This document shows, piece after piece, positions 3,323 through 35,410 of a DNA stretch of 43,162 nucleotides. The DNA is from Hydrurus foetidus (lineage: Eukaryota). The DNA lies in NCBI GenBank assembly GCA_900617105.1, contig UYFQ01000507.1:1-43162 (forward strand), written 5' to 3'. A program made the position numbers and the translations under genes. Within the stretch, counting starts at the first letter, position 1; every line of letters begins with the position of its first letter. A model generated the notes under the pieces. It was given only the letters and a program-made list of their open reading frames with translations, searched no databases and was not told where the DNA came from.

Positions 3323-3703
3323 TTACAGAATATTCTGCTGAGCCATGACAATCAAATAATTTGCCCAAAGGGCATCAGCAATTCCATTGCGCCACAGCTT
3401 TAAAGCATTGTAATTTTCATTGTTCTCGTCGTCTGCCTGATCATCAGGTTGAATATTATTCTCTACCACTCCTTCGAGGTAGAAGTCGTCCTCATACAGT
3501 TGATTTAGACGAATAAAATTATGCAATAGAAATGTACAATGCACGATATCACTTTGAAATTCAAAAGGGTATGGACTCATTTTGACCAGTATAGGGAGTC
3601 TTCTCTTCAAAACACCATACATTCTTTCAATAACATTTCTAAGTGATGAATGCCTAAGATTAAATAATTCTTTAGCATTTTGAGGACCGTTAACATCGTA
3701 CTC
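3323..3703 (-). pseudogene. Harbinger transposase, C-terminal part
   Basis: EYDVNGPQNAKELFNLRHSSLRNVIERMYGVLKRR...LLHNFI; joins in frame to YHLKE at 18480 when Gypsy A is removed. Confidence 0.9.
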
Positions 3704-3918
3704 TGTGGCCTTGCCAGGATCTGGGCACTGGGAGCGGGACGGCTGGGAGCGGGAGCAAGGGAAAGGAAGCTGGGAGCTATTGCTATGGAAACAATGTGGT
3801 TAGCTTACAGATAAACACAGCAGGTATCATGGCAATGAATCGGATGGATCGGATCGTCCTCGATCCGGTCCGAACGTACGCCTGTACCCGTACAGCCCGT
3901 ACGGGTGTGCGGGTCACA
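3704..3918 (-). repeat. 3' LTR of Gypsy A (215 bp)
   Basis: Near-identical to 18260-18476 (two substitutions and a 2-bp indel seen); short purine tract AGAGAGGG precedes it on the minus strand. Confidence 0.95.
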
Positions 3919-4087: not shown

Positions 4088-7000
4088 TTACCGTTCGGTA
4101 CGGAACGGATGGTAACTTGAGTATTGATCATGGTTCCCGTAATGTGTGATTTCCTTGTGATTGTGGTTGAGCCATTTCACATGAAATGTGAGTGATTTGT
4201 ATTTTATGTTTCCTTTCATTTCTAGGATTTCCTCTATGAAGAATTCTAGATAATCTCTACGAGCAATGTCAGTTGGATCGACATGCGTAGGATCAAAGTG
4301 AAACGGTTTTAGTTGGGTCATGTGGTACAACTTTTCTTTGTGTGTTACCAGATCGAGTAATGTATACTCTGCGAAGTTATGGCTGACAACTCGCATTGGG
4401 CCGCGCCACAGTGTGTGCATGCGCGTTTCTGGTGATGTTCTTTGTTGGACAAGTACAAATGTGTCGACCCCGAACTGTGTGACGTTGGGAAGTTGTTGTG
4501 CATTGTGCAAGTCGTCGGATTCTTTGAGTAGACGTGCGGTGATTTCGATGAGTTCATCTTGCAACGTTAACATTTTATCAGTTGACCGTGTGAGTGAGTC
4601 GAAATCTAAATCAATTTCATCTCTCGGAAGGAGGATGTTTGCGTCGAGGTCGATCGCGTTGCCATAGATGAGTTGTGCTGGAGACACTTTCATCCGGTCA
4701 TTTACGGTTGAATTTAGTATTCTTTTGTACGCATTCCCAGCCATATGTTATTTGTTTTTTTTAAATTACGCAGTGTGCGTTGTACACCACCATATCCGAC
4801 TATCGTGTTGTGGCACGTTGCAATTAGGTTATATTGCTCTGTCGTTATTGGTTTGTGTGTCAGAATTGCTGCTATTATCCCTGTTTTAGGTAGCATTCTG
4901 TTTAAACATAGGCGAGACATTGCGTCAGCAATTTCATTTTGTTTTCCCGGGATGTACTCTATCGTATATTCTAGTTCCTGCAGGGCCATACGCCATCTGC
5001 CGACCATCTCATATTTATCCTTTTCTAGGAACGTAAGATTTTTGTGGTCTGTTAGGATTGTGAATTTACGGTCTCGCAGCAGTGCGTCGAGATAAGTACA
5101 GCAATAATATAGCGCGAAGGCTTCTTTTTGTATTACTGACCATTTCAGTTGAGTCTTGGTAAGAGACTTGCTTACGAGAGCGACGAGTTGTTTTTCTCCG
5201 TCGACTTCTTGATACAAATAGCCGCCGATCCGTAATCTGACGCATCGGTCATGAGGGTAATGGGCGCTATCGTGTATGAAATATAATAAAGGACTCTTTG
5301 CAATTAGATCTTTTATCTTTTGAAAAGAATTTGCGGCGTCATCTGTCCAGATTAGCATTGATTGCTTTTTCGCGGCGTGATCTATAATTTTGTGCAGTGG
5401 TGCTACCACGTTGGAGTGATTTGGTACATGATCCCGAAAATAATTGGTGAGTCCGAGGAACGATCTAAGTTCAGTCGTCTTTCTTGGCATAGGAAAGTCG
5501 GTCACACCTCTTATTTTTTTGGAACTCATAGTTATACCTTCTTTAGATATTTGTCTACCGACATATTCAACTATTCGCACATTTAGCTTTAGCTTTGCGG
5601 CTTTTAGTGAAATGTTTTTGTTTTCTAGGCGTTGAAAAAGGATTTCTAATCGCTCGCAGAATTGATCAAATCCATTACCATAAACGATGATGTCGTCGAG
5701 GTATACTTCACAGATTTGGTATATTAGTCCTAAAAGGACTATTGAGGCCATCATTTCTTGGAAATATGAGGGGGCTCTTTTGGGTCCGAAAGGTAGTCGG
5801 GTAAAGTGGTAGATGCCCATAAATGTTATGAAAGCTGTATACACACGTGTACTTAGTGTTAACGGTGCTTGGTGATATCCTGCTGTGAGGTCTATTACAC
5901 CGAATGTGTCTGCTTTTTGTGAACCTAATCTTGCTAACATTTGTTTAATATTAGGGATTGGCCAGCTTGCTGATTCCGTTGCGTCGTTGAGGTGACGATA
6001 GTCGATACAGAATCGGTATGAACCGTCTGGCTTTGCCGCGAGTGTTACTTGCGAATAGTATGATGCCTCTGATTTGACTATTATACCCTGTTCAAGCATA
6101 GTTTCAACTTGTTTTCGGATTTCGACTTGTTTTCGTGTAGACGTTGGTCGTGGTGCTACGCGGTTTTTGAAAACTTTCCACTCTGGATCCCGTACGGGTA
6201 GTCCAAAGGGGGGAATTCGCGCGGGCTCTGGTCCGAGTTTGTTGTTAAATAGCTTTATGTGTTTGACACAAATTGCTTTAATTTTTGCTTGTTGTTCAGG
6301 GGTACCATCGATTTGTATTAGATCGATGAGGTACATTTTGTCCTCTGTTGGATTGTCTTGGAAAGGAGCGAAGGTATCCTTCGACTTGTAGTCAATCTCT
6401 TCGGGTCCGAAGGGTTGAACCTCTGGGAGTTCTTCACGCTCCCGGAGTAGAGCAGCAACTAAACCACGTGTTTGGGCTGGTGCCTTGGATGAGGGAGTAG
6501 GAGTAGCTAATTCCGGACTCCTGTCGGTTGTTACACCTAAATCATTTTGTCGGGGAGGTGACAACAAAACTGCTGCCTCGACCGTAGAGTGCAAAATGAA
6601 CTCATCAGAATCTAGCCTAGCCGCTGCCGCAGCTAAGCTAGTGGGACACCCACATGAAGGAGTGCATGTCTTGCTTGTACAAGCACCTCGAGCCACCAGG
6701 TCGTCTTGCCATCGACTGTCTGTGTCTGAGGGTTTTATCCCCTCTCGGCTAGTTATAACCGGAGGTATGGTTGGATCTGTAATGCTCGTAACTGTGTCCG
6801 ACTCTGCTTCTAGCATGAGTGGAACGTCCACGTGGTTTAATACCATGTTTGTGGATTGATTCAGTTTTTGTAATGAGTGAATTTTTTCATTTTCGATATT
6901 TTCCGGAGATTGGAAAAATTCCGGAATAATTTAACAAATTTAATTTTCTTATTGTCTCCAATCCTAAGATTAAGTCGACTTTGGAATCTTCTGCAATTCG

Positions 7001-7471
7001 CACCGGAAGAGAAAAAGTGTATTTTAAACCGTTTTTGTTAAATGATACAACAATATCAAGCACAGCAGTGGATTCAATACATTGATTGTTTAGACCCAAA
7101 CACATCCATATGGGAGAGTCGGTGGTGCGAAGTTGGGGTTCACCACGTAGGCCCCGAAGGACTCTACGATTGATTACGTCCCCAACTTGACATCCGGTGT
7201 CGATTTGGGCTGGGGCGGCCATGCCGTTATTTTGGTCCATAGCTGGAGGAAGATTTGGGTGGGGACCGGTCTCGATCGCGGCGATCTTTGTCTTTGTCCT
7301 TTTCCGCTTGGCGCGAGTCGTCTTTGCGGTTGGAGTCGCGGTCGCGGCTGTCAACTCGGTCGCCAAAGCGGTAGCCGGGGATTGGGTCTGAGGAAGATAT
7401 ATTGTTACTTGTAAGTAATCATCAATCTCGTTAGGTATGATTGTTGATAAAAGCATTTGCATGTTTGGCAA
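4088..7471 (-). pseudogene. Gypsy A pol: protease, RT, RNase H, integrase lacking its core, chromodomain
   Basis: AQIDTG (PR); FCIDYR, DLTAGYHQ, PFG, VYLDD (RT); TDH/ADAMSR (RH); LWRGPMRV; EFFIEEIL...FHVKW (chromodomain). Split over ORFs 6887-7471, 4714-6846 and 4088-4744. Confidence 0.9.
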
Positions 7472-7658
7472 AATACGATTTTCTGAGATATTTTCCGCAT
7501 ACGGAATTTTGGACTCACGTTTTCCTTTGTACCCGCGGTCTTTGATGTCGCGAGTATCGCGATTTTCGTTGCGATCGGTGTCGCGATTGTCTTTGCGGTC
7601 GTTGTCGCGGTTGGACCGGTCGTTGTTGCGATTGTTGTTGTTGTTGTTGGCTTTGGCC

Positions 7659-7987
7659 TATGCTGTGTCACGGTTTCAGCAACTGGCTGAAGACGAAGCT
7701 TTGAGTTTCAAGTTGGGCAAATGGGCGCAACAGGTTGGCTTGTCAGTCAAATGGGACTGATCAAGGAGATTGGCTGACTCAATTGAGTCAAAGTTGGTTT
7801 GGGTGGTTTAATAACGGTAGTTAATTAAGGTGTGAAAGGAGTGCGAGATTAGAGCTATACGAGCACACTGCAACTTGAAGTTTCCGAACAATCAGAAATT
7901 GAAAACTGATTCGAAAACTAGTGGTTACAAGCAAAGTTCAATGTGACTGTACGTACGTGTGAGTAATATATAGTGGAGACTATAACA
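7659..7987 (-). repeat. 3' LTR of Gypsy B
   Basis: Direct repeat of 15286-15614; minus-strand ends TGTTA...CATA. Confidence 0.95.
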
Positions 7988-7999
7988 CCACCCCATTCC
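7988..7999 (-). promoter_or_regulatory. Polypurine tract of Gypsy B
   Basis: GGAATGGGGTGG immediately upstream of the 3' LTR on the minus strand. Confidence 0.7.
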
Positions 8000-8358
8000 G
8001 GATGAAAAGTGTGATTAGGGTTGGAAATGAATAAATACAAAGTCATTACTACATCTCTGTGAGTTCGTTTATGAAATTGTATCGCTATAATAGCTTAATT
8101 AAAAATAAGTGGTTGGGTGGAAGTTGACGGGTTCGAACCCCTGCAAAATGCAGCTGAAGTGAAAATTAGACCAACAGGTGTGGCGTAAAAATTTTTCATG
8201 GCACTTTTCAGGGCACGCCAGGAAATGTGACGTGGCTGCAAAATGGAAATTCCAAGAAACGAAAAATTTCGCGACGCGAAATACTCTACTACTCAGCACT
8301 CAGCACATATTGAAGTTACAACTTCACCAATACACTAGGAGGGTTACAATATAGCAAA

Positions 8359-8997
8359 ATGTCAGGTGAATTTCTTCCATCGAAGAATTTATGCATGGCG
8401 GCGGCAATGGTTCTACCGCTGTCAGCGGAGCAACAGCAGTGGATGAGGTTGGGCGATGACGCAGGCAACACATTCAAAAAATCATTGGGATTGAATATAG
8501 ACGACAAGCTTCATTACGGAGCATCTGTCGAAGACGCATCGACGTATCTGAAGTATGTGTGTGCTAGGAACAAAGAGCTTGGGATTAAGTTAAAGTACGA
8601 GTTTCGGAGAGTCACAGGAAGGCATGGAAAGAGCCGTCGGTGGAATGCACATTCGATAGAGAAGACAGTTGTAAACAAGAAGGGAATTTATGTGGTATAT
8701 GGCAAAGCAAAATGGTTGAACAAGTTGCACACGGCACTGTTGAAGAGGATTAAAAAAGCAAATTGCGTGGGTGAAGAATTGGAGATTTACAGCATGGTGG
8801 CCAAGGGATTAAGCAGGATGGATCACGCCATTAGCATTCGTAGTGATGAAAACGGCGTCAGAATTTTTGATAATGCATGCACTAATGGTAGCATTAAATA
8901 TAATGTTCTGAATTTGGCAAGCAAAATGATTGATTTGACGAATTGTTATTATTTCGATTTGTATGAGAAGGGTAACAAGTCAAAGATAATTAAGTAG
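8359..8997 (+). CDS. Antisense accessory ORF in Gypsy B, 212 aa, putative papain-fold cysteine peptidase
   Basis: Uninterrupted ATG-TAG ORF between pol and the 3' LTR; motifs KNLCMAAAM, DHAISIR and VRIFDN in papain-like Cys-His-Asp order; the product is inferred. Confidence 0.6.
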   Translation: MSGEFLPSKNLCMAAAMVLPLSAEQQQWMRLGDDAGNTFKKSLGLNIDDKLHYGASVEDASTYLKYVCARNKELGIKLKYEFRRVTGRHGKSRRWNAHSIEKTVVNKKGIYVVYGKAKWLNKLHTALLKRIKKANCVGEELEIYSMVAKGLSRMDHAISIRSDENGVRIFDNACTNGSIKYNVLNLASKMIDLTNCYYFDLYEKGNKSKIIK

Positions 8998-9609
8998 AGT
9001 TTATTTTAGGGGGCAAGCCCACATTTTGAATGCCGTCCTCACATTATAGCTTCGGCTATGCTTCAATGAGTTGGAAAAAAAATGTGGTCAAGCCTCAGAC
9101 GCTTGGTATTAGCTTATGGATGTCATCGGCGGATTACTTTAAGGTAAGAATTTGATAGATTGTTGTAAAATAAATTTAATTATTTATTTCACGTATGTAA
9201 CATATTTAAATTTGTTATTTTTAATTTTTAAAATGACTCATATAATTATTTTAAATTTGTCAAATGACCTATTTAATTGTTATAAATGTGCAGAATAAAT
9301 TATTTAATCATTTATAATGCGTATTTATGTCGTGTATAACTATCGTACAGTATGGAATTATTATTTCATGTGTGTAAATATATTTTGACATGCGTTATTA
9401 ATAACTTACACATAGAATACATGAAGTAAAATTGTTGTTTGACATGTTATGTGAATTGTATGATGTGTGTAGTTGTCAATTTATTAGTGTGATTGTGGAT
9501 AATTGAATTTCGATGTGTATGAATATTTATCAAATGGAAAACATGCAGAATAGTAATTTATTTATGTGTCATATGCATATTGAATACATATGAGTGTTGT
9601 CGTGTAGGA

Positions 9610-12600
9610 CTATTGTGTAGAATTAACATTGTTTGACATGTCATTTGCATGTAGATGTTTATTTGTATTGTCGTGGGACAAGATTAGACATATTGTTTGC
9701 ATATAAATAGTCATGTACAACTGACACTTTTTAACTTCTGCCCATGGCTCCCATGTGTCATGTTCTGATGAGTAGTTGTGCCACCTGATTAGGAATTCTA
9801 GACTTGTGACTCGTTTGGAATCTCCTCTGTGACTTATGACTGAATCAATAATGTACTCATCTCGATCGAGCAGTGCTGCTGAAGTCGCAGCATCGGAGGA
9901 ACCTACGAATGGGGTGACGCGGCTGGAGTGAAGCTTCGAGACAATATTCGTGATGACGTGTCTGCAGGTGATATCATTCTTAGTTTGCTTTATTACTTCG
10001 TAGGGCCCAAGAAGTTTCGGAGAAAGTTTAGTGGATCGAAACGATTGTGGGGTCTCAAGTGGATTCCACAGAAGGTAGTCTCCGGGTTGATATTTGTTGT
10101 GTGTCGGTGTTTTAGCTAGCCGTTGAAGGCGGAGAGTTTGTTGGTACGATGATGTTATGGATCGAACAACAGAGAGATTGCGGTCAAGAGCAATCACTAG
10201 ATCACCGTAGGAGTGACCTGGTGATAGAGGAGGAGGTAAGTGAAAGCGAGCGTAGTCACGAGTTCCGTATTTTAGTTCAGCTGGTGTTACACCGCCTATC
10301 TCTGCGTTAGGCATCGTCATCATTGCGTGATTGATGAGAGGGAGCACGGTATCTGAGGCCCATTTGTTGGTGAATCGCTCGTCATGGACGAGCCTGCGCA
10401 GATGCCCCAGAAAGAGGGCATTAACGTGCTCAGTGCCGTTAGACTCATGGCGTCCAACAAGAGATATGCGGTGAGGTATTCCAAGCCATCGATTAAGATG
10501 ATCGAGGATGTCGGCAGTGAAAGCACTACCGGGGTCGGAGTAAATGGAGTCGTATGTGCCAAAGGTACAGTAGTGCTTAAACAAGACAGTAGCGGCTGTG
10601 TAGGCACTGTAGTCTTTGACAGGATACGCTTGTGGGAATTTGGTATCAAGTTCAACAACGAGAAGTAGACCAATGTAGCCGTCTTCGTCAGCTGGAGTAA
10701 CAGAGACGTGATCGAACCCAATTGAACGAGGATGGTGGAATAATGTTTCCCGAATTTCGTTGTACGGGATGGTCTTCAAAGGAAGACGGTCCTTCTGACA
10801 GATGGGGCACTCATTCACAAGATCCTCGACGACACGTACAGAGATGCCGTGACCAGGGAATCGTCGACAGAGGGCGAGATAGGTACGTTTAGCACCGTGA
10901 TGTAGAGATCGGCCACCGTGTACCGCGTCGAACATGTCTTTAGTCGTAAGGGATTGTAACATGGGTGATAGAGTGGATGGTGGTTGAGTGAGAGGGTGCA
11001 TACGCGACAGCCAGTCTGCCACAGTGTTGTCCTTTCCAGGAATATGCTTAACAGTGAAGACATAACTTTGTAGGAGAACACGCCAGCGGACTACTATGGG
11101 AACTTGACTGGTCTCAATCCAGACTAAGTTTCTATGGTCAGTCTCCAGTAGGAATGACTTACCACGGAGGTAGTATCCAAACTGAGTTACAGCGTAGTAT
11201 AAGGCATACGCTTCTTTCTTGAATGTGTCCCAATTGACAGCGGCACCAGAGTACTTATGCGAGGCGAAGGCGATTGGCTGATGGATGATGGTGTCTTGGG
11301 AATCGGTGAACTCTTGAAACAGGACGGCTCCTACAGCATGGTCGGAGGAGTCGGATCGTATGATCCAAGGTAGTGTATAATCAGGGAAGTGCAATGTGAC
11401 TGAGTCAGTTATAGCGACCTTAAAGAGTTCGAAGAGATGTTCGTAGTCTTTAATCCATGTTGACTGATCCCAGTTAAAACCAGTGGCTGTGCACTCGTAC
11501 AAGGCAGACGCCCATGAGGCGAAGTTGGGAATATGTGTATGGAAGAAGTTGGCTGCCCCTAAGAAGCTTTGCATTTGCTTCTGTGATGTAGGGAAGATCA
11601 TTGATGAGATAGCGCTTTTCCTAGCATCAGAGAGTTGCCAAGATCCTGGATGCACTTCATAACCGAAGAATGTAACAATGTCGGTGCCTATCCAAGACTT
11701 TTTAATCTTTAAAACAAGTCCATTGCTTTGACAGCGAAGTAGTACTTTCCTCAGTTTGTTAAGAGCATCTTGATAGCCTGAGGCCAGTACTAAGAAGTTG
11801 TCGAAGATAACAATGATCCAGTCGTCAAAATCAGCAAAGATTCTACGAACTATAGACTGAAGTATACCAGATGCAGGTCCGACACCCTCAGGCAGAAACT
11901 TCGGTCGAAAGAGTCCCCAGGGTGTGGACACTGAGAGTAGGTTAGAACTGAAATCATCGATAGGTATTTGGTGGAAAGAGTTTGTCATATCAAGATCGAC
12001 AAACACTTTCCAGCCAGCAGCTTTCGCAAGAGATTGTTGGACATGGGGTATGGGCTCTTGCGGGATACTGATGTATGGATTGATGGGGCGATAGTCACCA
12101 CAGAGCCGAATGAATGGAGAGGTTGCTTTCGGTGCAATGACAAGTGGACAGGCTATTGGAGATGTCGATACTTCGTAGAAGTATGTGCGCATTCTATCAA
12201 ACTCTGCTTTGGCGTCTTGATACAAAGCTTGCCGGACAGGGCGGGCTCGAGCTCTTAGAACGTCAGGTATGCCAGGCTTTATGTCGAGATGACATGGAGC
12301 CATGTTTATTCCCTTCCATGTGCTCGGGACAAATACGTCGTGTGCAAGTTCAGATTGGAGTAGTTCCATAATGGCTGGACATGCAGCTCGTATTTGAGGA
12401 GTGACGTGGGTGGCAAGATCGGAAGTGTAGATTGCTCGAGCTTCCTTCAGTGTAGTGGAAAGGTAGGCGAGGATATCATCAGGAAAGCTGGTTGGGTCAG
12501 GAGTGTTTAGCTCTTCAGGTGCGAGGGAATCAATTGGCTTAGACCAGGGTTGCATCATATCACCAGGATCCGGACTACATAGGAGAGCGCTTAAGGCATC

Positions 12601-13389
12601 ATATCGAGTCTCTACACGATTGTCGGCGAAGACATGGCCAAGATGAGGATGTGTCAGTATATCTGTAGTTGTACCATCCTGAAGAGCAAGTAGCCCTATT
12701 CGGGTGCTGGCACTGTCGCATATCTTGTTTTTACGTTGATGGTAGGCGGCATTGTGGTGTTGGAGAGAACGAGTTGCTCGTTCAATATCCTTAAGATTGC
12801 ACTGACTGTGAAGTACTTGAATTTCGACTGTAAGATCTCTCAAATGTGTTTCAAGATCATTTGTGATCGAGAGTTCGCGAGATTGAGTCACGGAGTCTGC
12901 AAACAGATCATAGAAGGGGCCGATAAGGTCAACTAAGCCGATGATAATGTCATGACTAAGAACGTCGAGAACGCTATACCATAGACAGTGTTGGTGGTTG
13001 TTACTTGCGGAGTCAAGTATACCGACAGTAAGAGGAACCTCGAGCTCAATCGATAGGGAGCGTGCATCACCTAGGCGGACGATGCGATCAATGGAGCGAC
13101 TGAGGTCAGTGATAGTTGAAGGTAGGCGGTTATAAACGTCACGGGAGATAAAGTTACTTCCTTGAGCTCCTGTATCAAGTAGACCGCGATCGAATAGGAT
13201 TGGATCGGTATCAGTTATGATGATACCAGAGCGAATAAATGGTTGGCAAAGTGTCTGCGAGGGTGTTGAAGTAGCAGATGCTAGTTGGTTGAGTAAAGCT
13301 TCTGTAATAACGTTGTCGGGGTCAAAGACATTTGCGTGTTGGAGATCTGGGGGAGAGGCGAGGTGATCTTCCGTGTGCATTTCAGCCAT
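9610..13389 (-). CDS. Gypsy B Pol (PR-RT-RH-IN-chromodomain), 1259 aa
   Basis: LLDTGA; LCGDYR, DLDMTNSFHQ, VIFDN; SDSS/EAYA/TDH/ADWLSR; HGGRSLHHG..CPIC, FDH/SDPG; LLGPY; EYIIDSV..FLIRW..DTWEP. Confidence 0.95.
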   Translation of the reverse strand: MAEMHTEDHLASPPDLQHANVFDPDNVITEALLNQLASATSTPSQTLCQPFIRSGIIITDTDPILFDRGLLDTGAQGSNFISRDVYNRLPSTITDLSRSIDRIVRLGDARSLSIELEVPLTVGILDSASNNHQHCLWYSVLDVLSHDIIIGLVDLIGPFYDLFADSVTQSRELSITNDLETHLRDLTVEIQVLHSQCNLKDIERATRSLQHHNAAYHQRKNKICDSASTRIGLLALQDGTTTDILTHPHLGHVFADNRVETRYDALSALLCSPDPGDMMQPWSKPIDSLAPEELNTPDPTSFPDDILAYLSTTLKEARAIYTSDLATHVTPQIRAACPAIMELLQSELAHDVFVPSTWKGINMAPCHLDIKPGIPDVLRARARPVRQALYQDAKAEFDRMRTYFYEVSTSPIACPLVIAPKATSPFIRLCGDYRPINPYISIPQEPIPHVQQSLAKAAGWKVFVDLDMTNSFHQIPIDDFSSNLLSVSTPWGLFRPKFLPEGVGPASGILQSIVRRIFADFDDWIIVIFDNFLVLASGYQDALNKLRKVLLRCQSNGLVLKIKKSWIGTDIVTFFGYEVHPGSWQLSDARKSAISSMIFPTSQKQMQSFLGAANFFHTHIPNFASWASALYECTATGFNWDQSTWIKDYEHLFELFKVAITDSVTLHFPDYTLPWIIRSDSSDHAVGAVLFQEFTDSQDTIIHQPIAFASHKYSGAAVNWDTFKKEAYALYYAVTQFGYYLRGKSFLLETDHRNLVWIETSQVPIVVRWRVLLQSYVFTVKHIPGKDNTVADWLSRMHPLTQPPSTLSPMLQSLTTKDMFDAVHGGRSLHHGAKRTYLALCRRFPGHGISVRVVEDLVNECPICQKDRLPLKTIPYNEIRETLFHHPRSIGFDHVSVTPADEDGYIGLLLVVELDTKFPQAYPVKDYSAYTAATVLFKHYCTFGTYDSIYSDPGSAFTADILDHLNRWLGIPHRISLVGRHESNGTEHVNALFLGHLRRLVHDERFTNKWASDTVLPLINHAMMTMPNAEIGGVTPAELKYGTRDYARFHLPPPLSPGHSYGDLVIALDRNLSVVRSITSSYQQTLRLQRLAKTPTHNKYQPGDYLLWNPLETPQSFRSTKLSPKLLGPYEVIKQTKNDITCRHVITNIVSKLHSSRVTPFVGSSDAATSAALLDRDEYIIDSVISHRGDSKRVTSLEFLIRWHNYSSEHDTWEPWAEVKKCQLYMTIYMQTICLILSHDNTNKHLHANDMSNNVNSTQ

Positions 13390-13407
13390 GGAAGGCCTCG
13401 CGAACCC

Positions 13408-15132
13408 CTATTTCTGATATGGGCGCATCGGTGTTGACAATGGAGGAGGTCGTGCTGCTCCTGGCACTTGTGGGGGTCCATAGTGTTTGTATCCATGTGA
13501 GTTGCTCGTTTTAACTCCACTTATCGGTTCCTGTTTGGGTGGAGACCATGGTTCTAGCTGTCCGTGCAGTAGCAATTCACGCTTGGTGAGAAGCGAGAAA
13601 GACTGAATACAGCGTTCCTGGCCGGCGGTTGAGTGATCGAAGGTGCAGCCGGAATGTTGGCGAGCGCATTTGCCGTAGACGAATGCTTCACTGCAGTATC
13701 CACGGAAGGTTGCGGAAACAGCTGATCGGGACCGATGCTGATCGACATTGATCGCAAGAAGAGATTCATCCTCAGGGTCTAGTGTGTCGACACGATCCTG
13801 AGGTCTGTCTTCATGTACTTCATGAATCAGGTCATCTTCATCTTCGAGGTCTTCTTCGTTGCATGCATTCTCGGATGCATTGAACAGTGGGTTAGCAGAC
13901 GTTGCTAGCGACGAGAAGTTTGATTGTGGACGCTGATCGTATTTGCGAGGAGTGACAAATGGCTGACGACCTGTATTGGACACCTGATGTCGGGTATGAG
14001 ATTCGCCTTGAGTGTATCTCAGATCTTCGTAGCGAATAGGAGTGAGCCTGGCGTCCAAGTCCTGTCGTGCTTCGCTTTGAGCACGACCTTCCATTAGTCG
14101 AGCCCTAACAAACTTGACTGCTTGTTCTACAGACTTCTGCTTAATGAGCTCGTCCTTGCTGAGCCATTGTAAGATGGAGTCTTTCTGAGCACCAAGGGAG
14201 ATGAGCCACAAAGCGATTTGGCCAGGGCTGTCTCTTGTGCCGTAACCAGGTACTGGCATCTTGGATTTGTTGGCGCTGTGATTTGAGGTTTCTTCAGACA
14301 TCAGATCATGCAGATGGAGCAAGTCAGTGAGCGACTTCATTAGAGGGGCATAGAAGGTGCTAGAGAAGTTGTCGGTGCTGATTGATGGTGTCTGTGGTAT
14401 TCCTTTGCCAAGAAACAATATTAGTTCCTTGGAGTACAATTCTTTTGTTCGAGGTCGTGCAGCTTCCACGAGGATAGCTTGAACCTCGGAGTTGGTTAAA
14501 GATAACCAATCTTCTACCATGACCTCGTTTGGTTCGGCGCCAGTGATAACTGACTCTCGATACTGGTGTGAGTTCCATGATGCCAATACGTGAGGGCGCA
14601 GGTTGTATGAAACCATGTGGGCCATTTTGATTTCACGTCCTGGATATTTGGAGGAAAGCAATTGAAGTTGGCGAGAAAGGTACTGGAGGCCTTCTAGAGA
14701 ACTGATCTTGAGTTCCTTGTCGTAAACGATGTCAGCTTGGAGGACTTGGATGTTTGGTTTGGTCGGCATGTCTGGTCTATCAGTGTTGTCTGGAAGTGAT
14801 TCCAGATTGTTCGGTTGGTAGTGCGGCATGCCGAAGAACATCGATGATCTTCTCCCGCGATTGCGATCAGGAAGTGGAGTATCGATGAACTCATCACGTA
14901 GTGGAGATTTCAAGTTCGATTTCTTGATTTCCAGGATTGCGTCTTTGAGTTCGCGGATATCGGTGCGATGGCGAAATTGGATTTCGCTACTTGTAGCTAG
15001 GAACTGATGGAACATTTCCTTGAGCTCCAAGATAGGATCATCCGAAGGCTCATCCTCTGGATCTTTCTTTGGGATTCCTTGTCCTTCGGACATTGTTGAA
15101 GGATAGCAGCTGTAGATGTGGTCGATTTGCAA
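13408..15132 (-). CDS. Gypsy B Gag-like protein (probable start MSEGQG)
   Basis: 574-codon ORF between the 5' LTR and pol, in the same frame as pol; C-terminal C-x8-C-x6-C-x3-H. Confidence 0.85.
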   Translation of the reverse strand: MQIDHIYSCYPSTMSEGQGIPKKDPEDEPSDDPILELKEMFHQFLATSSEIQFRHRTDIRELKDAILEIKKSNLKSPLRDEFIDTPLPDRNRGRRSSMFFGMPHYQPNNLESLPDNTDRPDMPTKPNIQVLQADIVYDKELKISSLEGLQYLSRQLQLLSSKYPGREIKMAHMVSYNLRPHVLASWNSHQYRESVITGAEPNEVMVEDWLSLTNSEVQAILVEAARPRTKELYSKELILFLGKGIPQTPSISTDNFSSTFYAPLMKSLTDLLHLHDLMSEETSNHSANKSKMPVPGYGTRDSPGQIALWLISLGAQKDSILQWLSKDELIKQKSVEQAVKFVRARLMEGRAQSEARQDLDARLTPIRYEDLRYTQGESHTRHQVSNTGRQPFVTPRKYDQRPQSNFSSLATSANPLFNASENACNEEDLEDEDDLIHEVHEDRPQDRVDTLDPEDESLLAINVDQHRSRSAVSATFRGYCSEAFVYGKCARQHSGCTFDHSTAGQERCIQSFSLLTKRELLLHGQLEPWSPPKQEPISGVKTSNSHGYKHYGPPQVPGAARPPPLSTPMRPYQK

Positions 15133-15285
15133 AGACTTTTCAATTCAGCTCTCCTAGGGAATTCAATTTACCTCAGAGATTCTAAATCTCGCGGAGCCAG
15201 GGCGATCACTGCTTGCTGGCGGAAAGGAAAGAATCAACTGAGACTTAGACGTTGTCTCGTCTCGTGTAAACTAGAAATATATATT

Positions 15286-15614
15286 TATGCTGTGTCACGG
15301 TTTCAGCAACTGGCTGAAGACGAAGCTTTGAATTTCAAGTTGGGCAAATGGGCGCAACAGGTTGGCTTGTCAGTCAAATGGGACTGATCAAGGAGGTTGG
15401 CTGACTCAATTGAGTCAAAGTTGGTTTGGGTGGTTTAATAACGGTAGTTAATTAAGGTGTGAAAGGAGTGCGAGATTAGAGCTATACGAGCACACTGCAA
15501 CTTGAAGTTTCCGAACAATCAGAAATTGAAAACTGATTCGAAAACTAGTGGTTACAAGCAAAGTTCAATGTGACTGTACGTACGTGTGAGTAATATATAG
15601 TGGAGACTATAACA
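15286..15614 (-). repeat. 5' LTR of Gypsy B
   Basis: Direct repeat of 7659-7987. Confidence 0.95.
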
Positions 15615-15631
15615 GGCCTTGTTGTTCTTGC

Positions 15632-15727
<96 letters not shown>

Positions 15728-17706
15728 GGACTTGCGAGGGTCGTCTTTTGCAGCGGGACCCATGTCATTTTCGACGTCGTCGGTTGGGTAGACGTATGTT
15801 GCCGCGCCAGGATTGTTGGTTGTCCTGGTCATTTCGCCATTGAGTAGGACGTTTGGGACGAAATGGTCGTGGCCAATTCTCCTGAACTCTGTTGCCAACG
15901 TGGATTGACTCCACGTGGTATACGAGTTGTTGCAATGAGGATTCATGAAATTGCGACAATCGTAGCGATTGTGTCCTTGGCGACCGCAGGTGTGGCAATT
16001 ATCGATTGTTTTGCTCAGACCTGGGTAGGCGTCGGATTCGCGTTTGGGTATCGTGCGGTAGGAGGCGGAGAGCTGCGTTGTGTTGCTGGACGACAATGAG
16101 TCGGGGTGATTTTGGTCTCGAAGTCGTAAGCGAAGACCACCCATGTTGGACGCGTTGATAACTGTTTGCCGAGCTTCACTGAGGCAGAGATTCATTCGGC
16201 ACAACATGTTTGGGATGGAATCCTTTTGTTGTTTCTTGTTTTGTCCTTTGTAATGTTCATGAAGTTTTCAGTGAACTTATTATCAAGAGGGAGCTTTTTG
16301 TAGATGATCTTACAGATCTCATGTTGGCGGTCTGCAGGTATATTGTCGTAGCTGCCGTAGTATCCGAAGAGGATGTCTCGGAGTCGTGCAATTGCCGCCA
16401 ACTCTACGTTTGGGTTTTGCCATTTGATCTTCATTTGCCAGTTTTTCAGGGCAAGGTCCAAGTCATAGGTAGACTCTGTGGCGCGATCACTGAAGAATAG
16501 TTTCTTGAGATCGGTGGCCATGTCGCGAATGGACAGGAGTTTGTCGTCGATGATGGGCCAGGTTTGACACATTTTGATTGTGTATCCGAGAGTCTTTCGA
16601 TTTTGAAGGAGACTGTCTCGGATCACATGGACAGCTTCGTCTTCGATGAGATCCTTCCAAGGTGCATTAAACTGAGGGCGGTGCGCCTGTGTATAGAACT
16701 TTCGGGCTGTGCCGTCCATGTCCTTCAGTAATGTCTCACGTGTTACATAGAACACTTCCTTCATGTTGATGAGGGAGGTTGTGAGTGCTTGGGGTGTTCG
16801 TTGTTGTTCGAAGACTGTGTCAGCCTCTTCGGTTTTGCGCTTGCGGTTTGAAGTGGCAGCCGCTTTCGTGGAAGCTGTCGCTGACTTCTTTGCAGCTGCT
16901 ACCGTTGCTTTCGACGTTTTGGATCTGGTGGCACGCGTGGGTTTGTCTTCAGATTGGACGGCAGAGAGTTGTTTTGCCTCCCTTGTTTTGGCAAGGGGTT
17001 TGATTGGCATAGCCTTTTTCTTTTTCGGTTTTGGTGACGGTGGGGTTGACGCTTCCGACTCACTTTGATCTTCCTCGTCCGATTTGGACTTGGTATCGTC
17101 GGGGTTGTTGTCTTCCTCTTCGTCCTCGTCGTTGGTTTGTTCGTCTTCCGCCTCTTCCGAGGCGTTGTCAGACACCGAGACGTTATCATCGTCGGAGAGA
17201 ATTTCCTTCGGAGATATTTTGGTACCGATTTTGTCGTCGCCCTCTTCCGTTTGAGAAGGATTGATATCCTCTTCTTCTTCGGTTTGGGGTCGGATTGGAG
17301 AGCCATCCTCATCTGACTGAGGGTTTAGACTGTGTAAGTCATTTGTCTCTTGCATCCAGGCTGACAAGTCTTTCAGTTCTTGATCTTCGAGATCAGATCT
17401 GTTGTCAGCCTGTTCCTGCAGCACTTCAAGTCGCACGCGATTGCGTTCACGTTCTTGTTGTAGCTCCAGGAAGCGTGCTTCGTTTGCCGCCAATTCGTCG
17501 GATATGCGCGTATGGGTGCTCGAGGCTTTGATAGCCGATTTGCCCAGCGTCTTCATGGAGTTGGCTATATTGTCTTCTCGAGCGAGACGCTCGAGTTTAG
17601 CCTTCTCTTTATCCGATAGGAAGAGGATATTTTGGGGTTTGGAGCGTTTGGAAGACGAGCTAGCTTCGCTAGAGCTCTCTTTCTTGGTTTTTTGGGCCTT
17701 AACCAT
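15615..17706 (-). pseudogene. Gypsy A Gag (frameshift near 16200; continues below 7658)
   Basis: ORFs 16192-17706 and 15545-16207; CCHC knuckle CHTCGRQGHNRYDC; long charged low-complexity N-terminus. Confidence 0.8.
15619..15729. repeat. (TTG)n microsatellite in Gypsy A gag (poly-Asn/Thr)
   Basis: About 110 bp of TTG repeats; similar repeats continue at 7622-7649 on the other side of Gypsy B. Confidence 0.9.
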
Positions 17707-18259
17707 CTTGAAAACTTGGCGTGGGAATTCTCACTGGAACTCTGCGTCTTGGACAGCGACGGAACGCGGACGCGGTGATTCAGGGAAAAGAGGAGTAGGT
17801 TGTTCGAGGGTGAGGACTGGTAGGTAGGATGGGTAAGTGTGGTAGTAGGAGTCAGGGGATTGGAATGGTTTGGTGCGATTTCGGGAGGAAATCGCAACAA
17901 AATTTGGACGTGGGCGGCGGCTTCGTAAGGAACGAAGCTGGGCGTGGGCGCGTTGGATTTCGTTCGTGAACGAGTTTGGGAGGTGTTACTTGCTTGCAAG
18001 TTCCTTTCCTTCGTAAGCCTTCGCGTAGAAGAGCTGCATATTTTGGGAATAAATCGCCAATATTTGAGGTCGCGAACGACTACGATTCAGAGGCTGTCGC
18101 GTTGACGAGACCTTTGTAGTATCGTTTGGGGTGGTTTTCACTCTTGGAGAGTTACTCAACTTGTTCCTCAGACTGTTTTACGGTCGTTGCGGGATTTTTT
18201 GTTGGACGTTTGGTCAACTTGGATCTTAGAGATCGCTAGCTGGTTCCAAATACCGGTAT

Positions 18260-18476: not shown

Positions 18477-19255
18477 ACTCTTTTAGGTGGTATCTAACTC
18501 CTCTGTAAGGGGTCAAAACATGCTCACTTAAAGCGTAACATGCATCGCCCAAGTAGTACTTACTAGGCAGTAACGGTAATCCTCTGCCTTTAGAATCATC
18601 AAAAACACGACTGTGTGTGCTAACCCTCCCAACCGAATAGAACAAAGGCAAAAGTAAGGTCAAAATTAGATACTCCTAGCACATTCTGGGTGATAACTTT
18701 TTTCCTATTTCGGTAAGCCTCTTGATCTACGATAGGAATACAAGCAGGAATATGCGTACCATCCAGAGCTCCGATGCAATTATCGAAAAATGGTGAAAAC
18801 TTCGCGGAAGTAGCTATTTGAGACGGTGCTGGTGCACCAATAATTGAAGGCTGGAATACGATTCCGCTGCAACCGATGAGCGCATCGCTTGCCTCGTGAA
18901 TAATCTTCGAAATAGTAGAACCACTGTGTTGCCACCTTTCCTTTATTTGGCGATTGGTATAACCCCTCAGAACTTGCACTAAAACCATGATTTTTTGACC
19001 TGCACAAATATACAAAGAGTCCTCGAGACCATCAGCTTCCATCATCATAATTCTTAATTTAATAAATGTTGATCGATCCATTCTTGCAACCTCGTGAAAC
19101 CTGTGCACGTTGTACGTCTCCATGACTTCAGCAAAGTACAGCTGACCAGTCAAAACAGAGGTGTGTTGGAGTACAGGATTTCGCGCGACATTTTGCAGCG
19201 CACCGACTACGGCAGTGACAACAACTATTGCTTGAAGACCATCATCTTCTTCCAT
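18477..19255 (-). pseudogene. Harbinger transposase (DDE_Tnp_4/HARBI1-like), N-terminal part
   Basis: RMDRSTF, ERWQHSGSTIS, CIGALDGTHIP, QNVL, GWEG (frameshift), YYLGDACY, TPYRGVRYHLKE. Confidence 0.92.
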
Positions 19256-19840
19256 TGCGAAAATATGGATGATACAGTAACACGAGGTGTGCTATCGTGC
19301 TATCTAACGTGCAAGCTATACGTCTTCTAATCTGCGGTTCAACGGTAATTTGGTGGTGTGTCTGTTGTCTGACTCTTAGTCCCCCATTTTTTAAAATTTG
19401 TCCGTTGTCCGAATTCCGGACCCCCCAAAGTTTTTGAAACCGTTCGGTAAATCGAACCCCAAACTATTTTCGTGAAAAATTCAACTTTCCGAAAGTTGAA
19501 ACGGGGGGTCAGATTCAACTTTCGAAAAAACGAGGGTTTTTCCGTGAAATTTACCGAACGCACCTGAAACCTCAGAATCTGAGGTTTCGTTTTCAAGATT
19601 CCAGAATAGTAATTTCGACCCGAGGGGCGCAGCCCCGAGGGATGAAACAATGTAGCCGATTTTACAGTGTCGAGGGTCGAATATTACTTTTTGTTCCGAG
19701 AGATCCTTTAAGTCCCGTTACGGTCATCTTCTGCTGTTGTATTTCTTGCTTAGCTCTAATTTGCTTAGTCGATTTTTAAAGATTTTGAAAGAAATTTTGG
19801 TCTTTTTGGGGTGGATTTAATTATTTTCATATCATTAAAA

Positions 19841-21521: not shown

Positions 21522-21776
21522 TTCTGTGTTATTACGCATTGACTCCAAGTTGCAGTTTAGTATGAGTGGTTGTGTATTGCGTAATTGTACCTTTCAGGAT
21601 GCTTCTTTTTCATGCCACCGAAGTGTTTTTGAGCCTGCTGTCGTTTTACGGTATTCAAAACGGTTTCTACGACGCGTAGCGTCGTTCTGGCGCGGATCCT
21701 TTTCGACCCGCGCGTGAAAACGGTGAAATCTGGCCGGAAGCTCATGACCGGAAAGGGCGCTGGGGCCTTGAGGATA

Positions 21777-22380
21777 AATAGTAATTTCGTACCGAGACCA
21801 CAAAACAGTGGCGTTTTTCGTACCGAGAGGCTCTTTTCGAACCTCGGACTGGGGCCGATACCCGTATAAGAGTCTTTATAGGGCTCCAGGTGGATAATAG
21901 TAATTTCGTACCGAGACATAAACAGAGGCGTTTTTCAGAGGTTCGAAAGAGCAGAGGTTTCATGGTCGAGCGTTTATCGTACCGATGCTCGCTTGTTGCA
22001 CGAGAAGAGCCGAGGTTTCATGGTCAAGCGACAACGTTACTTTATCCACGGTGAGACCGATGCTCACAGCGGTACTGACACTTGCAGGGTATCCGAAGGT
22101 CACAGTCGCTACCGAGGAGGCGTTTTTCGTAAAGGCTGAGTTCATGGTCGAGCGTACGAACGTTACTTTATCCACCGTGAGACCGATGCTCACAGCGTTA
22201 CGAAAAGGTAGACTGATACTCACAGCGGCCATCATTTTTTTTTCGACCGCTGTGACCTTCGGTCTACCTTCTCGTACCGCTGTGGTCGATCTACCTTTCA
22301 TACCAGCGGTTTGAAAAACTCAAAATTTAGGGGGAGCCGATACCCGTATAAGAGTCATTACAGGGCTTCAGGTGGATAAA
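21777..22380. repeat. Modular repeat mosaic related to 35790-37121
   Basis: Shared modules ATAGTAATTTCGTACCGAGAC, TTCATGGTCGAGCGTACGAACGTTACTTTATCCACCGTGAGACCGATGCTCACAGCG and GCCGATACCCGTATAAGAGTC. Confidence 0.85.
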
Positions 22381-30128: not shown

Positions 30129-30469
30129 TGTTGGAGATATCGTAGTTTATGACACGGACACAATCAGTGTACTTATGCATTCGTACGGTCGTACGGATTA
30201 ATTTGTGTGTGTGTGTGTGTGTGTGTGTGCGTACATGCGTGACGACGATGAATGGACCCGTGCATCGTCTCTGTACTTCAAGCGTAGTGTAGAATGTCTT
30301 TTGTTGTTGCGTTGAAAGGGACTCGGGGACTTCAGCAGGGATGAAGCACAGTCAATTAACAAGTGTTTACTGCCATACAAGAGCTTATTTCACGAGTCCT
30401 GACCGAGTGACCTTCAACCACAGTACAGCGAGAGGCGTACGTGTGGGCCGAACCGAAGATCCGTCAACA
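30129..30469 (+). repeat. Copia 5' LTR (341 bp, contains (TG)n)
   Basis: Matches the 3' LTR except at the TG tract. Confidence 0.95.
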
Positions 30470-30472
30470 TAA

Positions 30473-33400
30473 TTGACTGCCACAGGCATTCCGATGCCTC
30501 CCAAACGCGCCGCAGAAGCTTTCAAAAGTACAGAGGAGTGTATGCTTCAATACGGCAAACACAACAACATTATCAAATGGAGAGAACACATGCAAACGGT
30601 TGTAACCGAACTATACGGGATAGTTGGCATGTTCTTCACAACAAATGTGAGATACGAGCTCCCGAGAGTTTCTTACAGGGATTACCCTGCAGATTCGTCA
30701 TCGGAAAGCTCCAGTTCCGAAGAAGACGACGAGATAGCCGAAGGTCAACAGGAACAACCGCCTGACCCAGAGACCGTGGCGTACGCCGCCGCGAGGCCTG
30801 CTCGCATCGCCGCCAGACAGGCGAGGAACGAGAGGAGGCGTAAAGCGTCAGAACGCTCTAGAGCAAAATTTAAAGAAGATGATTACATACAGAGAAAGAG
30901 GGACATCAAAACGCAGAAAGAGAACGAACGTACGATGTACCCGATGATGTGGAAGCGCATGTCGCTGCTATCACAAAGTAGGGTGAGGGAGGAGGAAGAT
31001 TTCAAGACAGCATATGACACCCTGGACTGTGTCATGTTGTGGACGCTCATAAGGAGGACTCACCTCACACACATGTACGGGGGCGATGAGACACTGCAGG
31101 AGTACAACCAACACGAACAGGAGAGTAAGTACGGCTCAATGAGGCAAGGTGAGAGAGAGCACATTGTCACCTTCAAGAACAGATTCGATGAACAGGTAAC
31201 CGCGAACGCTGCTGTCGGAATCGCTGCGGTGACAGAGTCGAAGCGAGCATTGGATTTCCTAGGGAAGCTCGACACTCGAAGGTACAAGATCATGCTAGAC
31301 GACATGAAGCATGACGCCTTACGACGCAAACCAGGGGCGTTCCCAACCACACTCGCCCTAGCTTTCCACATCGCCTCAGAGTGGAATGACCGAGTCCCTG
31401 CATCCACACCCACACCGACACCGGCGGGTGCGAACGCAGCGTACGTGACCGAGGGAGTCCACGTCACAGCGGCCAAGGACCCGGAAAAGAAAGCGGGGAA
31501 AGCCGGAGGTGGCAGCAAGAAATCCTTAGCAGACGTCGAGTGCTACAAATGCGAAACAATGGGACACTACGCGCGGAACTGCCCACAGAAGAAATCGTCG
31601 TCATCGGAAAAAGTCCACGTCACGGTGGAAGAGTCAGACGAAGAATACGAAGGAGAGTCGAGCGAGTGGGGTGTAGCTCTCGTCACTGGCGATGAAATAT
31701 GCTGCTTCTCCAGATTCGACGTGCTGTTAGACAACGAGGCCTCGCTGAACATATTCAATAACGCTGAACTACTTACTGACCTGAGGAAGTCGCAGTCGAC
31801 AATTCGAGTGAGCGGTATCCAGCAAGGAGGAGGAGTGAGCGTAGATCGGGAAGGGGAGTTCGGAGAGTTCGGCACAGTGTACTACAGTAGTTCGGCATCG
31901 GCAAACATCCTGTCATTCGCGTCGCAGGTCGACTCAGGTGCGTCGATCAGATATGACCACCTGAGCGACTGCTTCACTCTTAGTCCGAAGAGCAGCACGA
32001 GGATCTATCGGTTCGGGAGAAAGCGAGTCATAGGAAGCGAGGGGAGGTTCTACTCGTGCGACTGGAGGGATGTCGAGCACGACAAAGCGTTAGTAACTAC
32101 GGTGGTTGAGAATCTGAAAGCGTTTACGAAACGAGAGATCGAGCAGGCGAGACGAGCTCGTGAGCTGCTCGCTAGGATGGGCTTCCCGACGGTGGAACAG
32201 GCGATGTCGATCGTGAACAGCGGAAGCAACTTCGACATTACGGCGAGAGATTTCCAGATCGCTGATGCGATATGGGGCAAAGATATAGCCTCTATAAAAG
32301 GGAAAACAGTGAAGAGAGCTACTGCTATCGCTGATATTACAGTCAGCACGAAACTAATGCAAAGGGATCAGGTGCTGTCTATCGACATTATGTTCATAGA
32401 CAAACTAGCGATACTAGTTGGGGTATCTACACCACTGGGACTAACTATTGCATATAGCCTAAACACAGCAGATTTAACAAAGCCAGCAAGGACAGCAGCC
32501 CAAGTAAAGATCGGGATAAACCATTTTATCGCAGTCCTCGCTGCGCAAAACTTCAGGACCTCCATAATCATGAGCGACGGAGAGGGGGCTGTCAAGAGTC
32601 TCATTGACGAGCTGGGAAGGCTCGGTGTGGAGGTTGACGTCAGTGGAGCCGGCGGCCACGTCGCTAGGATTGAGAGAAAAATTCGCATTGTTAGAGAACG
32701 GGTACGATGTCACGTAGCGTACCACCTTCCGTTCACACTATCGACGGTGGGTATCGCCATGCTCGTACTGTACTGTATATCCAGGCTGAACTACGAACCG
32801 GCCGGATTACGGGAATGGGGCCCGAGTCCGCGTGAAGCATACATCGGTAGGAAGCCTGATGGTAAGAGAGACTTTAGATGCTCTTTCGGAGATTATGTGC
32901 AATGTACCGTTCCTAACACTGACTCAGGATTCAAGAGCCGAACCGAGGACTGTGTGGTTATGCTCCCCCTCGGAAATCGCACGGGCTCAGTGAGAATGCT
33001 TTCGCTCAGCACAGGAAGACTAGTGAACAGGGACCAATTCAGAGTGCTACCGATGCCCGAGTCCGTTATAAAGAGACTAAATGAACTCGCACATGCAGAT
33101 GGTAGAGTAAAAGGGAAGGGTGATCTGTACGCACGGCCCACGTCGTACGAGCAGTACGGGAACGCTGCCAAGGGACTGCCCGACACGATGGAACCCAACG
33201 TCAACAACGGTGTGGATCCATCGATAGAACCTCTAGATGACGACCGTGAGACTAGAAACGAAGAGGTAGACAACGGTGACCAGCATCAAGACAATGGAGG
33301 AGAATTGGGTGAACAACAGTACGACAACGGCGAAGCACCGAACGAGGTAGACCCGAGGGACGATAGTGAACCATACGAGGAAGCGGTACAGGCCGAACAA

Positions 33401-33556
33401 CCTGAAGAGCGCGACAATGATATAGATGATCTGATCGATAGTATGAACCGGATGCGAGCTGGGCCGAGGGACCAAGTTGAAGATCCCACGGGGGGACTAG
33501 ATGAGAGAGGAATACCGGAGGACTACATATCGACAGACGGGAGACCAGACGAGTAA
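30473..33556 (+). CDS. Copia Gag-protease-integrase (probable start ATG at 30494)
   Basis: CYKCETMGHYARNC; VLLDNEAS; SIDIMF, MSDGEG, HVARIERKIR. Confidence 0.9.
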   Translation: MTATGIPMPPKRAAEAFKSTEECMLQYGKHNNIIKWREHMQTVVTELYGIVGMFFTTNVRYELPRVSYRDYPADSSSESSSSEEDDEIAEGQQEQPPDPETVAYAAARPARIAARQARNERRRKASERSRAKFKEDDYIQRKRDIKTQKENERTMYPMMWKRMSLLSQSRVREEEDFKTAYDTLDCVMLWTLIRRTHLTHMYGGDETLQEYNQHEQESKYGSMRQGEREHIVTFKNRFDEQVTANAAVGIAAVTESKRALDFLGKLDTRRYKIMLDDMKHDALRRKPGAFPTTLALAFHIASEWNDRVPASTPTPTPAGANAAYVTEGVHVTAAKDPEKKAGKAGGGSKKSLADVECYKCETMGHYARNCPQKKSSSSEKVHVTVEESDEEYEGESSEWGVALVTGDEICCFSRFDVLLDNEASLNIFNNAELLTDLRKSQSTIRVSGIQQGGGVSVDREGEFGEFGTVYYSSSASANILSFASQVDSGASIRYDHLSDCFTLSPKSSTRIYRFGRKRVIGSEGRFYSCDWRDVEHDKALVTTVVENLKAFTKREIEQARRARELLARMGFPTVEQAMSIVNSGSNFDITARDFQIADAIWGKDIASIKGKTVKRATAIADITVSTKLMQRDQVLSIDIMFIDKLAILVGVSTPLGLTIAYSLNTADLTKPARTAAQVKIGINHFIAVLAAQNFRTSIIMSDGEGAVKSLIDELGRLGVEVDVSGAGGHVARIERKIRIVRERVRCHVAYHLPFTLSTVGIAMLVLYCISRLNYEPAGLREWGPSPREAYIGRKPDGKRDFRCSFGDYVQCTVPNTDSGFKSRTEDCVVMLPLGNRTGSVRMLSLSTGRLVNRDQFRVLPMPESVIKRLNELAHADGRVKGKGDLYARPTSYEQYGNAAKGLPDTMEPNVNNGVDPSIEPLDDDRETRNEEVDNGDQHQDNGGELGEQQYDNGEAPNEVDPRDDSEPYEEAVQAEQPEERDNDIDDLIDSMNRMRAGPRDQVEDPTGGLDERGIPEDYISTDGRPDE

Positions 33557-35344: not shown

Positions 35345-35410
35345 TTAAATTATTAAGACAACATATGCGTGATGTGTGAATAGAAATGATTGTGATGTGG
35401 CATAGGGGTG

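What the first reader, a model, noticed from the sequence alone, without database searches (positions are those of the whole stretch)
11797..11808. RT active site reads IFDN instead of YxDD in an otherwise intact, recently inserted element
Seen: WIIVIFDNFLVL at the motif C position, with motif A Asp, RNase H and integrase residues intact and only two LTR mismatches. Changes at both Y and the second D suggest a lineage trait rather than one decay mutation. Known: the second-Asp-to-Asn mutant of Ty1 RT still polymerises but fails to transpose. Inference: a natural variant RT chemistry, possibly linked to the unusual priming site.
Basis: partly seen in the sequence, partly recalled or inferred. 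Interest (0 to 1): 0.7.

Follow-up and report, generated by a model that had tools for sequence, protein, structure and literature searches.

The report
Asparagine-site reverse transcriptase retrotransposon clade
A recently inserted jumping gene, likely from an alga, belongs to a large old family whose copying enzyme always has asparagine in place of one of its three classic catalytic aspartates, a swap that stops lab yeast elements from jumping, and it likely still works because neighbouring active-site residues changed with it.

Summary
Confirmed and not private. IFDN at 11797-11808 is motif C of the RT of a young Ty3/Gypsy-type LTR element (LTRs 2/329 mismatches, target-site duplication), likely from an alga. 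All 120 listed close homologues carry xxDN, as do 147 of 149 representatives of 50%-identity clusters; the two others are ordinary YIDD elements. The DN elements are one side of a long branch (100/100) under purifying selection. Fixed with the Asn: Glu in motif B (xPEG, 149/149), Phe in the primer grip (149/149) and D/E/N two residues before the motif A Asp (147/147); no D/E there in 114, and no Glu in 117, canonical controls. Best reading: a working RT with a co-adapted, rewired active site; activity and geometry are inferred, not measured. The family also has a CCCH-finger Gag and, often, one in-frame stop plus hairpin between gag and pol. A link to priming was not supported. DD-to-DN is published for G2L5 RTs and RNA-virus polymerases, and this scan noted it in other RT groups on other DNA; I found no paper on this clade.

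The parts
15286..15614 (-). 5' LTR (329 bp shared; starts TGTTAT, ends CAGCAT/A)
15094..15285 (-). leader; AT-rich sequence after the LTR (AATATATATTTCTAG), no TGG-type tRNA primer site
   Evidence: no tRNA gene in window
13411..15093 (-). gag ORF, 561 aa; weak capsid-like fold; CCCH finger at 13633-13695 instead of a CCHC knuckle
13350..13410 (-). in-frame TAG (13408-13410) followed by a hairpin; predicted read-through signal
   Evidence: z -2.98; 1 of 200 shuffles as stable
9610..13407 (-). pol: protease (D at 13174) - RT - RNase H - integrase - chromodomain
11989..11997 (-). RT motif A 'DLD': catalytic Asp (11989-11991) plus an extra Asp two residues before it (11995-11997)
11887..11889 (-). 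motif B Glu (LPEG; F in Ty3 MPFG, Q in MLV LPQG)
11797..11808 (-). RT motif C IFDN (the finding)
11665..11667 (-). primer-grip Phe (FFGY; L in Ty3 FLGY), invariant in the clade
11014..11352 (-). RNase H with D-E-D-D
10429..10713 (-). integrase core D-D-35-E
9721..9855 (-). chromodomain; this copy is frameshifted near 9727 relative to sisters
7988..7999 (-). purine-rich tract before the 3' LTR
7659..7987 (-). 3' LTR
7655..7659 (+). target-site duplication GGCC(T), partner at 15615-15619 (4 or 5 bp; the T at 7659 fits both LTR and TSD)

Best explanation
This is a young copy of a large, old Ty3/Gypsy-type retrotransposon clade whose reverse transcriptase has Asn fixed in place of the second motif C aspartate and likely still copies the element, because the active site around it has likely co-adapted. 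Shown: the Asn is invariant, encoded by both AAC and AAT, and fixed together with Glu in motif B, Phe in the primer grip and D/E/N two residues before the motif A Asp; the two essential aspartates, the fingers Lys/Arg, an aromatic steric-gate residue, RNase H and integrase are kept. Inferred: the two remaining aspartates bind the two metals; the new D/E/N on the motif A strand, which would face the same side of the sheet as the Asn, supplies the oxygen or hydrogen bond that the lost aspartate gave to the primer-side metal, while the motif B Glu would retune the fingers Arg and pyrophosphate release - the steps that fail in Ty1 D211N. Pol would be made by read-through of the gag stop.
For: 120/120 listed homologues at 61-95% identity have DN; 147/149 cluster representatives down to 37% identity. 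In the DN set (the two YIDD rows moved to the controls, two rows added): N 149/149, motif B E 149/149, primer-grip F 149/149, A-2 D132/N8/E7 of 147; controls: D 122/125, no E in 122, no D/E at A-2 in 114. Asn codons AAC 42, AAT 30 over 72 matches, one locus counted twice. pN/pS against four relatives 0.13/0.75, 0.14/0.85, 0.28/0.87, 0.28/0.83. DN rows form one side of a branch with trait columns removed: SH-aLRT 97 (57+25 rows), 100/100 (21+12 rows). Model pLDDT 93, TM 0.89 to CaMV RT and 0.79 to Ty3 RT. LTRs 2/329 apart with TSD. Ty1 D211N and Ty3 D214N keep polymerase activity in vitro but do not transpose, so this is the one aspartate that can be traded (PMC2148107; PMC5371799 section 3.1).
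Against: No activity was measured and no RNA holder could be tested. A-2 is Asn, not an acid, in 8 of 147, so a simple 'moved carboxylate' is not required in all members. No intermediate forms were found, so the order and causal link of the changes are unknown; many other columns also differ along the long stem (28 columns), and one origin gives one independent observation. Controls are mostly one neighbouring family plus five other rows.
Confidence: 0.72

Rival explanations
1. The RT works with two aspartates and Asn is simply tolerated; the co-fixed residues are lineage history, not compensation.
For: Ty3 D214N and Ty1 D211N polymerise in vitro; GDN and ADN polymerases exist in RNA viruses; Asn occurs at A-2 in 8 of 147; the long stem carries many unrelated changes.
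Against: Mere tolerance predicts reversions by one transition; none in 149 DN-clade representatives although the codon's third base turns over. The same swap blocks transposition in both yeast elements.
Confidence: 0.17
2. The polymerase site is dead; the RT domain is kept as a scaffold for RNase H and the elements are copied in trans by an RT with DD.
For: G2L5 DD-to-DN was read as loss of polymerase activity (PMC2602772 passages); a canonical YLDD gypsy is in the same window.
Against: The polymerase-specific residues K58, R65, D104 and D167 are as invariant as in canonical elements; pN far below pS; the clade is deep and widespread with whole gag-pol.
Confidence: 0.06
3. The Asn is an adaptation to a special priming mode (self-, fragment- or de novo priming).
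For: No TGG-type primer site after the LTR in the window or at the likely LTR end of L039; changed primer-grip residue; Ty3 RT can prime de novo in Mn2+ (PMC10415136 passages).
Against: Self-complement only 8 nt, reached by 25 of 500 random pieces, and it lies in the TATA-like start of the LTR; LTR ends could not be fixed in most relatives; the short post-LTR motif is at a comparable place in few of 27 leaders.
Confidence: 0.04
4. Private mutation or sequencing error.
For: This copy has one other private defect near 9727.
Against: 120/120, 147/149, 42/42 and 72/75 counts; listed variants of sister contigs around the motif are synonymous (40 of 203 rows shown).
Confidence: 0.01

Closest known systems
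Saccharomyces Ty3 (PDB 4ol8, 7q5b) and Ty3/Gypsy elements with chromodomain
   Same: LTRs, PR-RT-RH-IN order, best sequence match among solved structures (E 1e-79 for the RT profile), same fold, chromodomain after integrase
   Different: xFDN for YLDD, D/E/N for T at A-2, PEG for PFG, FFG for FLG; CCCH finger; stop codon between gag and pol; no tRNA-type primer site seen
Laboratory mutants Ty1 D211N and Ty3 D214N
   Same: Same Asp-to-Asn swap (PMC2148107, PMC5371799)
   Different: Those do not transpose; here the Asn is the fixed wild-type state of a clade with a recent insertion
G2L5 group II-like bacterial RTs (Simon and Zimmerly 2008, PMC2602772)
   Same: Conserved natural DD-to-DN change
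   Different: Unrelated RT class, read there as loss of activity; no mobility evidence like LTR age and TSD
Mononegavirales GDN and birnavirus ADN RNA polymerases
   Same: Working right-hand polymerases with Asn at the last motif C position
   Different: RNA polymerases; no equivalent of the A-2 acid or motif B Glu was tested

Membership tests
Ty3/Gypsy LTR retrotransposons | Two LTRs flanked by a short target-site duplication | tested here: met
   329-bp repeats, 2 mismatches, GGCC(T) duplication
Ty3/Gypsy LTR retrotransposons | pol order PR-RT-RNase H-integrase | tested here: met
Ty3/Gypsy LTR retrotransposons | RT-RNase H closest to Ty3/caulimovirus type | tested here: met
   Ty3 best by sequence; CaMV, MLV, Ty3 by fold
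Ty3/Gypsy LTR retrotransposons | Gag with retroviral-type capsid fold | tested here: inconclusive
   Best row dArc2 C-lobe Z 6.0, rmsd 3.0, 84 aligned; dArc1, MOAP1, PEG10, Copia capsid Z 5.1-5.5 mixed with unrelated helical rows; Foldseek none; atlas leads under 0.9
Canonical three-aspartate RT active site | YxDD in motif C | tested here: not met
   IFDN
Canonical three-aspartate RT active site | Motif A Asp and first motif C Asp | tested here: met
   113/113 each in alignment A1
Chromoviruses | Chromodomain after integrase | tested here: met
   PF00385 E 2.4e-10; absent from the precomputed domain lists of most ~63% relatives
Chromoviruses | RT falls inside the named chromovirus clades | not testable with these tools
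   No named reference set (GyDB, Repbase) was available; trees used unnamed controls
tRNA-primed LTR elements | Primer site complementary to a tRNA 3' end (TGG...) next to the 5' LTR | tested here: not met
   Sequence after the LTR is AATATATATTTCTAG
Tf1-type self-priming elements | Primer site complementary to the 5' end of the transcript | tested here: inconclusive
   8-nt match at LTR 16-23, 25 of 500 by chance; transcript start unknown

The most novel reading that the evidence does not exclude
An unnamed, deep clade of protist LTR retrotransposons (over 140 clusters at 50% identity) has rebuilt the RT active site once and kept it: the third catalytic carboxylate has moved from motif C to a DxD on the motif A strand, with a Glu in the nucleotide pocket, giving a natural intragenic suppressor of the lethal Ty1 D211N/Ty3 D214N change, in elements that also use a CCCH-finger Gag and stop-codon read-through.
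Probability: 0.4. Interest if true: 0.8.

Novelty: new variant of a known kind. Interest (0 to 1): 0.63.

Why it matters
What the third RT aspartate does, and why its loss spares polymerisation but kills transposition in Ty1 and Ty3, has been open since those mutants were made. Here is a large natural family that appears to transpose without it and points to three specific co-fixed residues, so the question becomes a small set of point-mutant assays. It also warns that YxDD filters will miscall a whole abundant family as dead, and offers many natural RTs that may differ in metal use, processivity or fidelity.

Tried and rejected
No genome was held for the window, so genomic copies were checked only through contigs of public runs. 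No RNA holder listed. Search from the most divergent member P0353 found 7 proteins: four DN, three distant canonical, no intermediate. Self-priming not convincing; LTR ends of relatives mostly unresolved because contigs are circular or cut; the TTCTAGTTT motif is not general. Foldseek gave no Gag match. Atlas search of the RT gave only generic RT clusters. Paper searches without a description of this clade or motif: (0-15 papers listed, none on it); one search read passages of PMC6875170 without relevance. Uzun and Gabriel 2001 and Bibillo 2005 were not held and are cited through PMC2148107 and PMC5371799. Repbase, GyDB and subscription journals were not searchable, so prior description there is not excluded. 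No complex prediction was run: no binding claim is made. Six hits in bacterial MAGs are short contigs, likely binning contamination.

Full report
The observation. The minus strand at 11808-11797 reads ATC TTC GAC AAC, IFDN, inside a 1265-codon pol frame. It aligns with Ty3 YLDD and CaMV YVDD. The element spans 7659-15614: LTRs differing at 2 of 329 positions, a GGCC(T) duplication, gag (561 aa), an in-frame TAG, then protease, RT, RNase H, integrase and chromodomain. It is inserted in an older, frameshifted YLDD gypsy element. One blemish: near 9727 this copy has one base fewer than sister contigs of four runs, shifting the chromodomain's last ~21 residues. The host is a eukaryote: the window's dihydroxy-acid dehydratase gene has introns and a leader that looks like a signal plus plastid transit peptide (the reading of such leaders is recalled), so an alga with a secondary plastid is likely. 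Nineteen listed runs from 9 studies, mostly freshwater and sediment metagenomes, hold half or more of the element's words; one may be its source.

Lineage trait. Of 778 proteins found, the 120 listed (61-95% identity) all have DN: 119 IFDN, 1 IYDN. Of the 150 best representatives of 50%-identity clusters, 149 cover motif C; 147 have DN and 2 are ordinary YIDD elements with K-L-D and MPFG. Of 88 cluster members, the 42 that cover the motif read IFDN. Of 80 metagenome loci, 75 cover it: 72 DN, 2 IFKI, 1 IFDH, none DD. The Asn codon is AAC in 42 and AAT in 30 of 72 matches (window included, one locus counted twice). pN is far below pS against the four relatives compared. Listed differences in sister contigs next to the motif are synonymous, with 40 of 203 rows shown. 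With the trait columns removed, DN rows form one side of a branch: SH-aLRT 97 on 82 rows (two controls dropped as too short) and 100/100 under a mixture model on 33 rows. The controls are unnamed and mostly one family, and the root is not inferred.

What changed with the Asn. In the DN set (148 representatives after moving the two YIDD rows to the controls, plus two rows) against 125 controls: N168 149/149; motif B E138 149/149 against F101, M20, Q1; primer-grip F212 149/149 against V, C, L; position 102, two before the catalytic Asp, D132, N8, E7 of 147, against no D or E in 114. E138 aligns with F of Ty3 MPFG and Q of MLV LPQG, D102 with T or V. K58, R65, D104, D167 and the RNase H acids are as conserved as in controls; the steric-gate position stays aromatic (F136, Y12). 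One control cluster, P0472, has an isolated YIDN without these changes. In all, 28 columns separate the two sets, so co-fixation alone does not prove compensation.

Structure and mechanism. The predicted RT-RNase H (pLDDT 93) matches CaMV RT (TM 0.89), MLV and Ty3 RT. D102 and D104 are alternate residues of strand 99-105 and N168 opens strand 168-173, so they likely face the same side; that these strands pair and that the equivalents are HIV-1 V108, D110, Q151, D186 and M230 is recalled, not measured. In Ty1, D211N keeps polymerisation but lowers kpol 223-fold, prefers Mn2+, disturbs pyrophosphate handling and blocks transposition, and the residue is assigned to the primer-side metal (PMC2148107, passages). 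Ty3 D214N keeps activity with low processivity and is lethal for transposition (PMC5371799, section 3.1 read). The likeliest mechanism is therefore a two-aspartate core in which D/E/N102 would replace the lost oxygen near the primer-side metal, E138 would retune R65 and pyrophosphate release, and F212 would fill the space of the lost Tyr. Asn at 102 in 8 of 147 shows that a negative charge there is not always needed; E138 is the stricter partner. That the enzyme works is inferred from the young insertion, whole gag-pol, purifying selection and depth of the clade.

Other family traits. Gag carries a CCCH finger (C467 and H487 invariant in 31 aligned rows). Of 69 motif matches with an upstream stop, 34 show a finger-bearing gag, one TGA (29) or TAG (5) and pol in the same frame, 4 are fused and 31 could not be classed; many have a hairpin just after the stop (window z -2.98), though several do not. 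Three close relatives are fused across the same junction. Read-through is predicted, not shown. The priming site is not tRNA-3'-end-like and self-priming is not convincing.

Comparison and novelty. It is a Ty3/Gypsy-type element by LTRs, domain order and RT; capsid fold inconclusive. DD-to-DN is published for G2L5 bacterial RTs, read as loss of activity (PMC2602772, passages), and GDN/ADN occur in RNA-virus polymerases (PMC3121795 and bioRxiv 10.1101/2022.10.18.512700, passages). Earlier notes of this scan report DN in Cigr-1 gypsy, LINE, Penelope-like, DGR and retron-like RTs on other DNA (unchecked here); no look-alike of this sequence was on file. My paper searches found no account of this clade, but Repbase, GyDB and subscription journals were out of reach, and no supplements were read. 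The swap itself is thus a recurring theme; what is distinctive is its complete fixation in a deep mobile clade together with named candidate suppressors. Verdict: real, new variant of a known kind, interest 0.63.

Noticed in passing
window 13350-13410 (-) and loci L001-L087: Single in-frame TGA/TAG between gag and pol, often followed about 6 nt later by a G-rich hairpin; fused gag-pol in some relatives. Predicted programmed read-through.
   Followed up: partly
window 13633-13695 (-): CCCH zinc finger in Gag in place of the CCHC knuckle, conserved across the clade.
   Followed up: partly
proteins P0071, P0093, P0099, P0103, P0109: DN-clade pol proteins with an EEP/exonuclease III-like domain (PF03372) fused in front of the protease.
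   Followed up: no
window 7655-7662 and 15283-15290: LTR end is non-standard: TG...CAT with a 5-bp duplication or TG...CATA with 4 bp; may reflect an unprocessed cDNA end.
   Followed up: partly
window 15262-15285 (-); L039 near 690: Shared short motif AAATAT...TTCTAGTTT right after the LTR end in the window and the 45%-identical L039; primer site or splice acceptor unknown.
   Followed up: partly
window 8314-8997 (+): 227-codon open frame antisense in the element's 1.6-kb 3' non-coding part; no Pfam match.
   Followed up: no
window 4088-7657 and 15615-18086 (-): Older frameshifted YLDD gypsy element with chromodomain-like end, split by this insertion inside an AAC-rich repeat.
   Followed up: partly
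window 30206-35750 (+): Copia element with 265-bp LTRs (one mismatch) and one TGA at 33554-33556 between integrase and RT regions.
   Followed up: no
window 39905-43162: About 3.2 kb of (AAAATC)n running to the window end; satellite or unusual terminal repeat.
   Followed up: no
window 21776-22380 and 35790-37122: Clusters of related inverted repeats, probably non-autonomous DNA transposons; Harbinger-like transposase fragments at 3323-3799, 18620-19291 and 39442-39933.
   Followed up: no
L081, L082: DN elements in the viral contig collection, one in a record labelled as a giant-virus MAG; insertion into a virus or binning contamination.
   Followed up: no
P0472: Isolated YIDN in the otherwise canonical neighbouring family, without the motif A or B changes.
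   Followed up: partly
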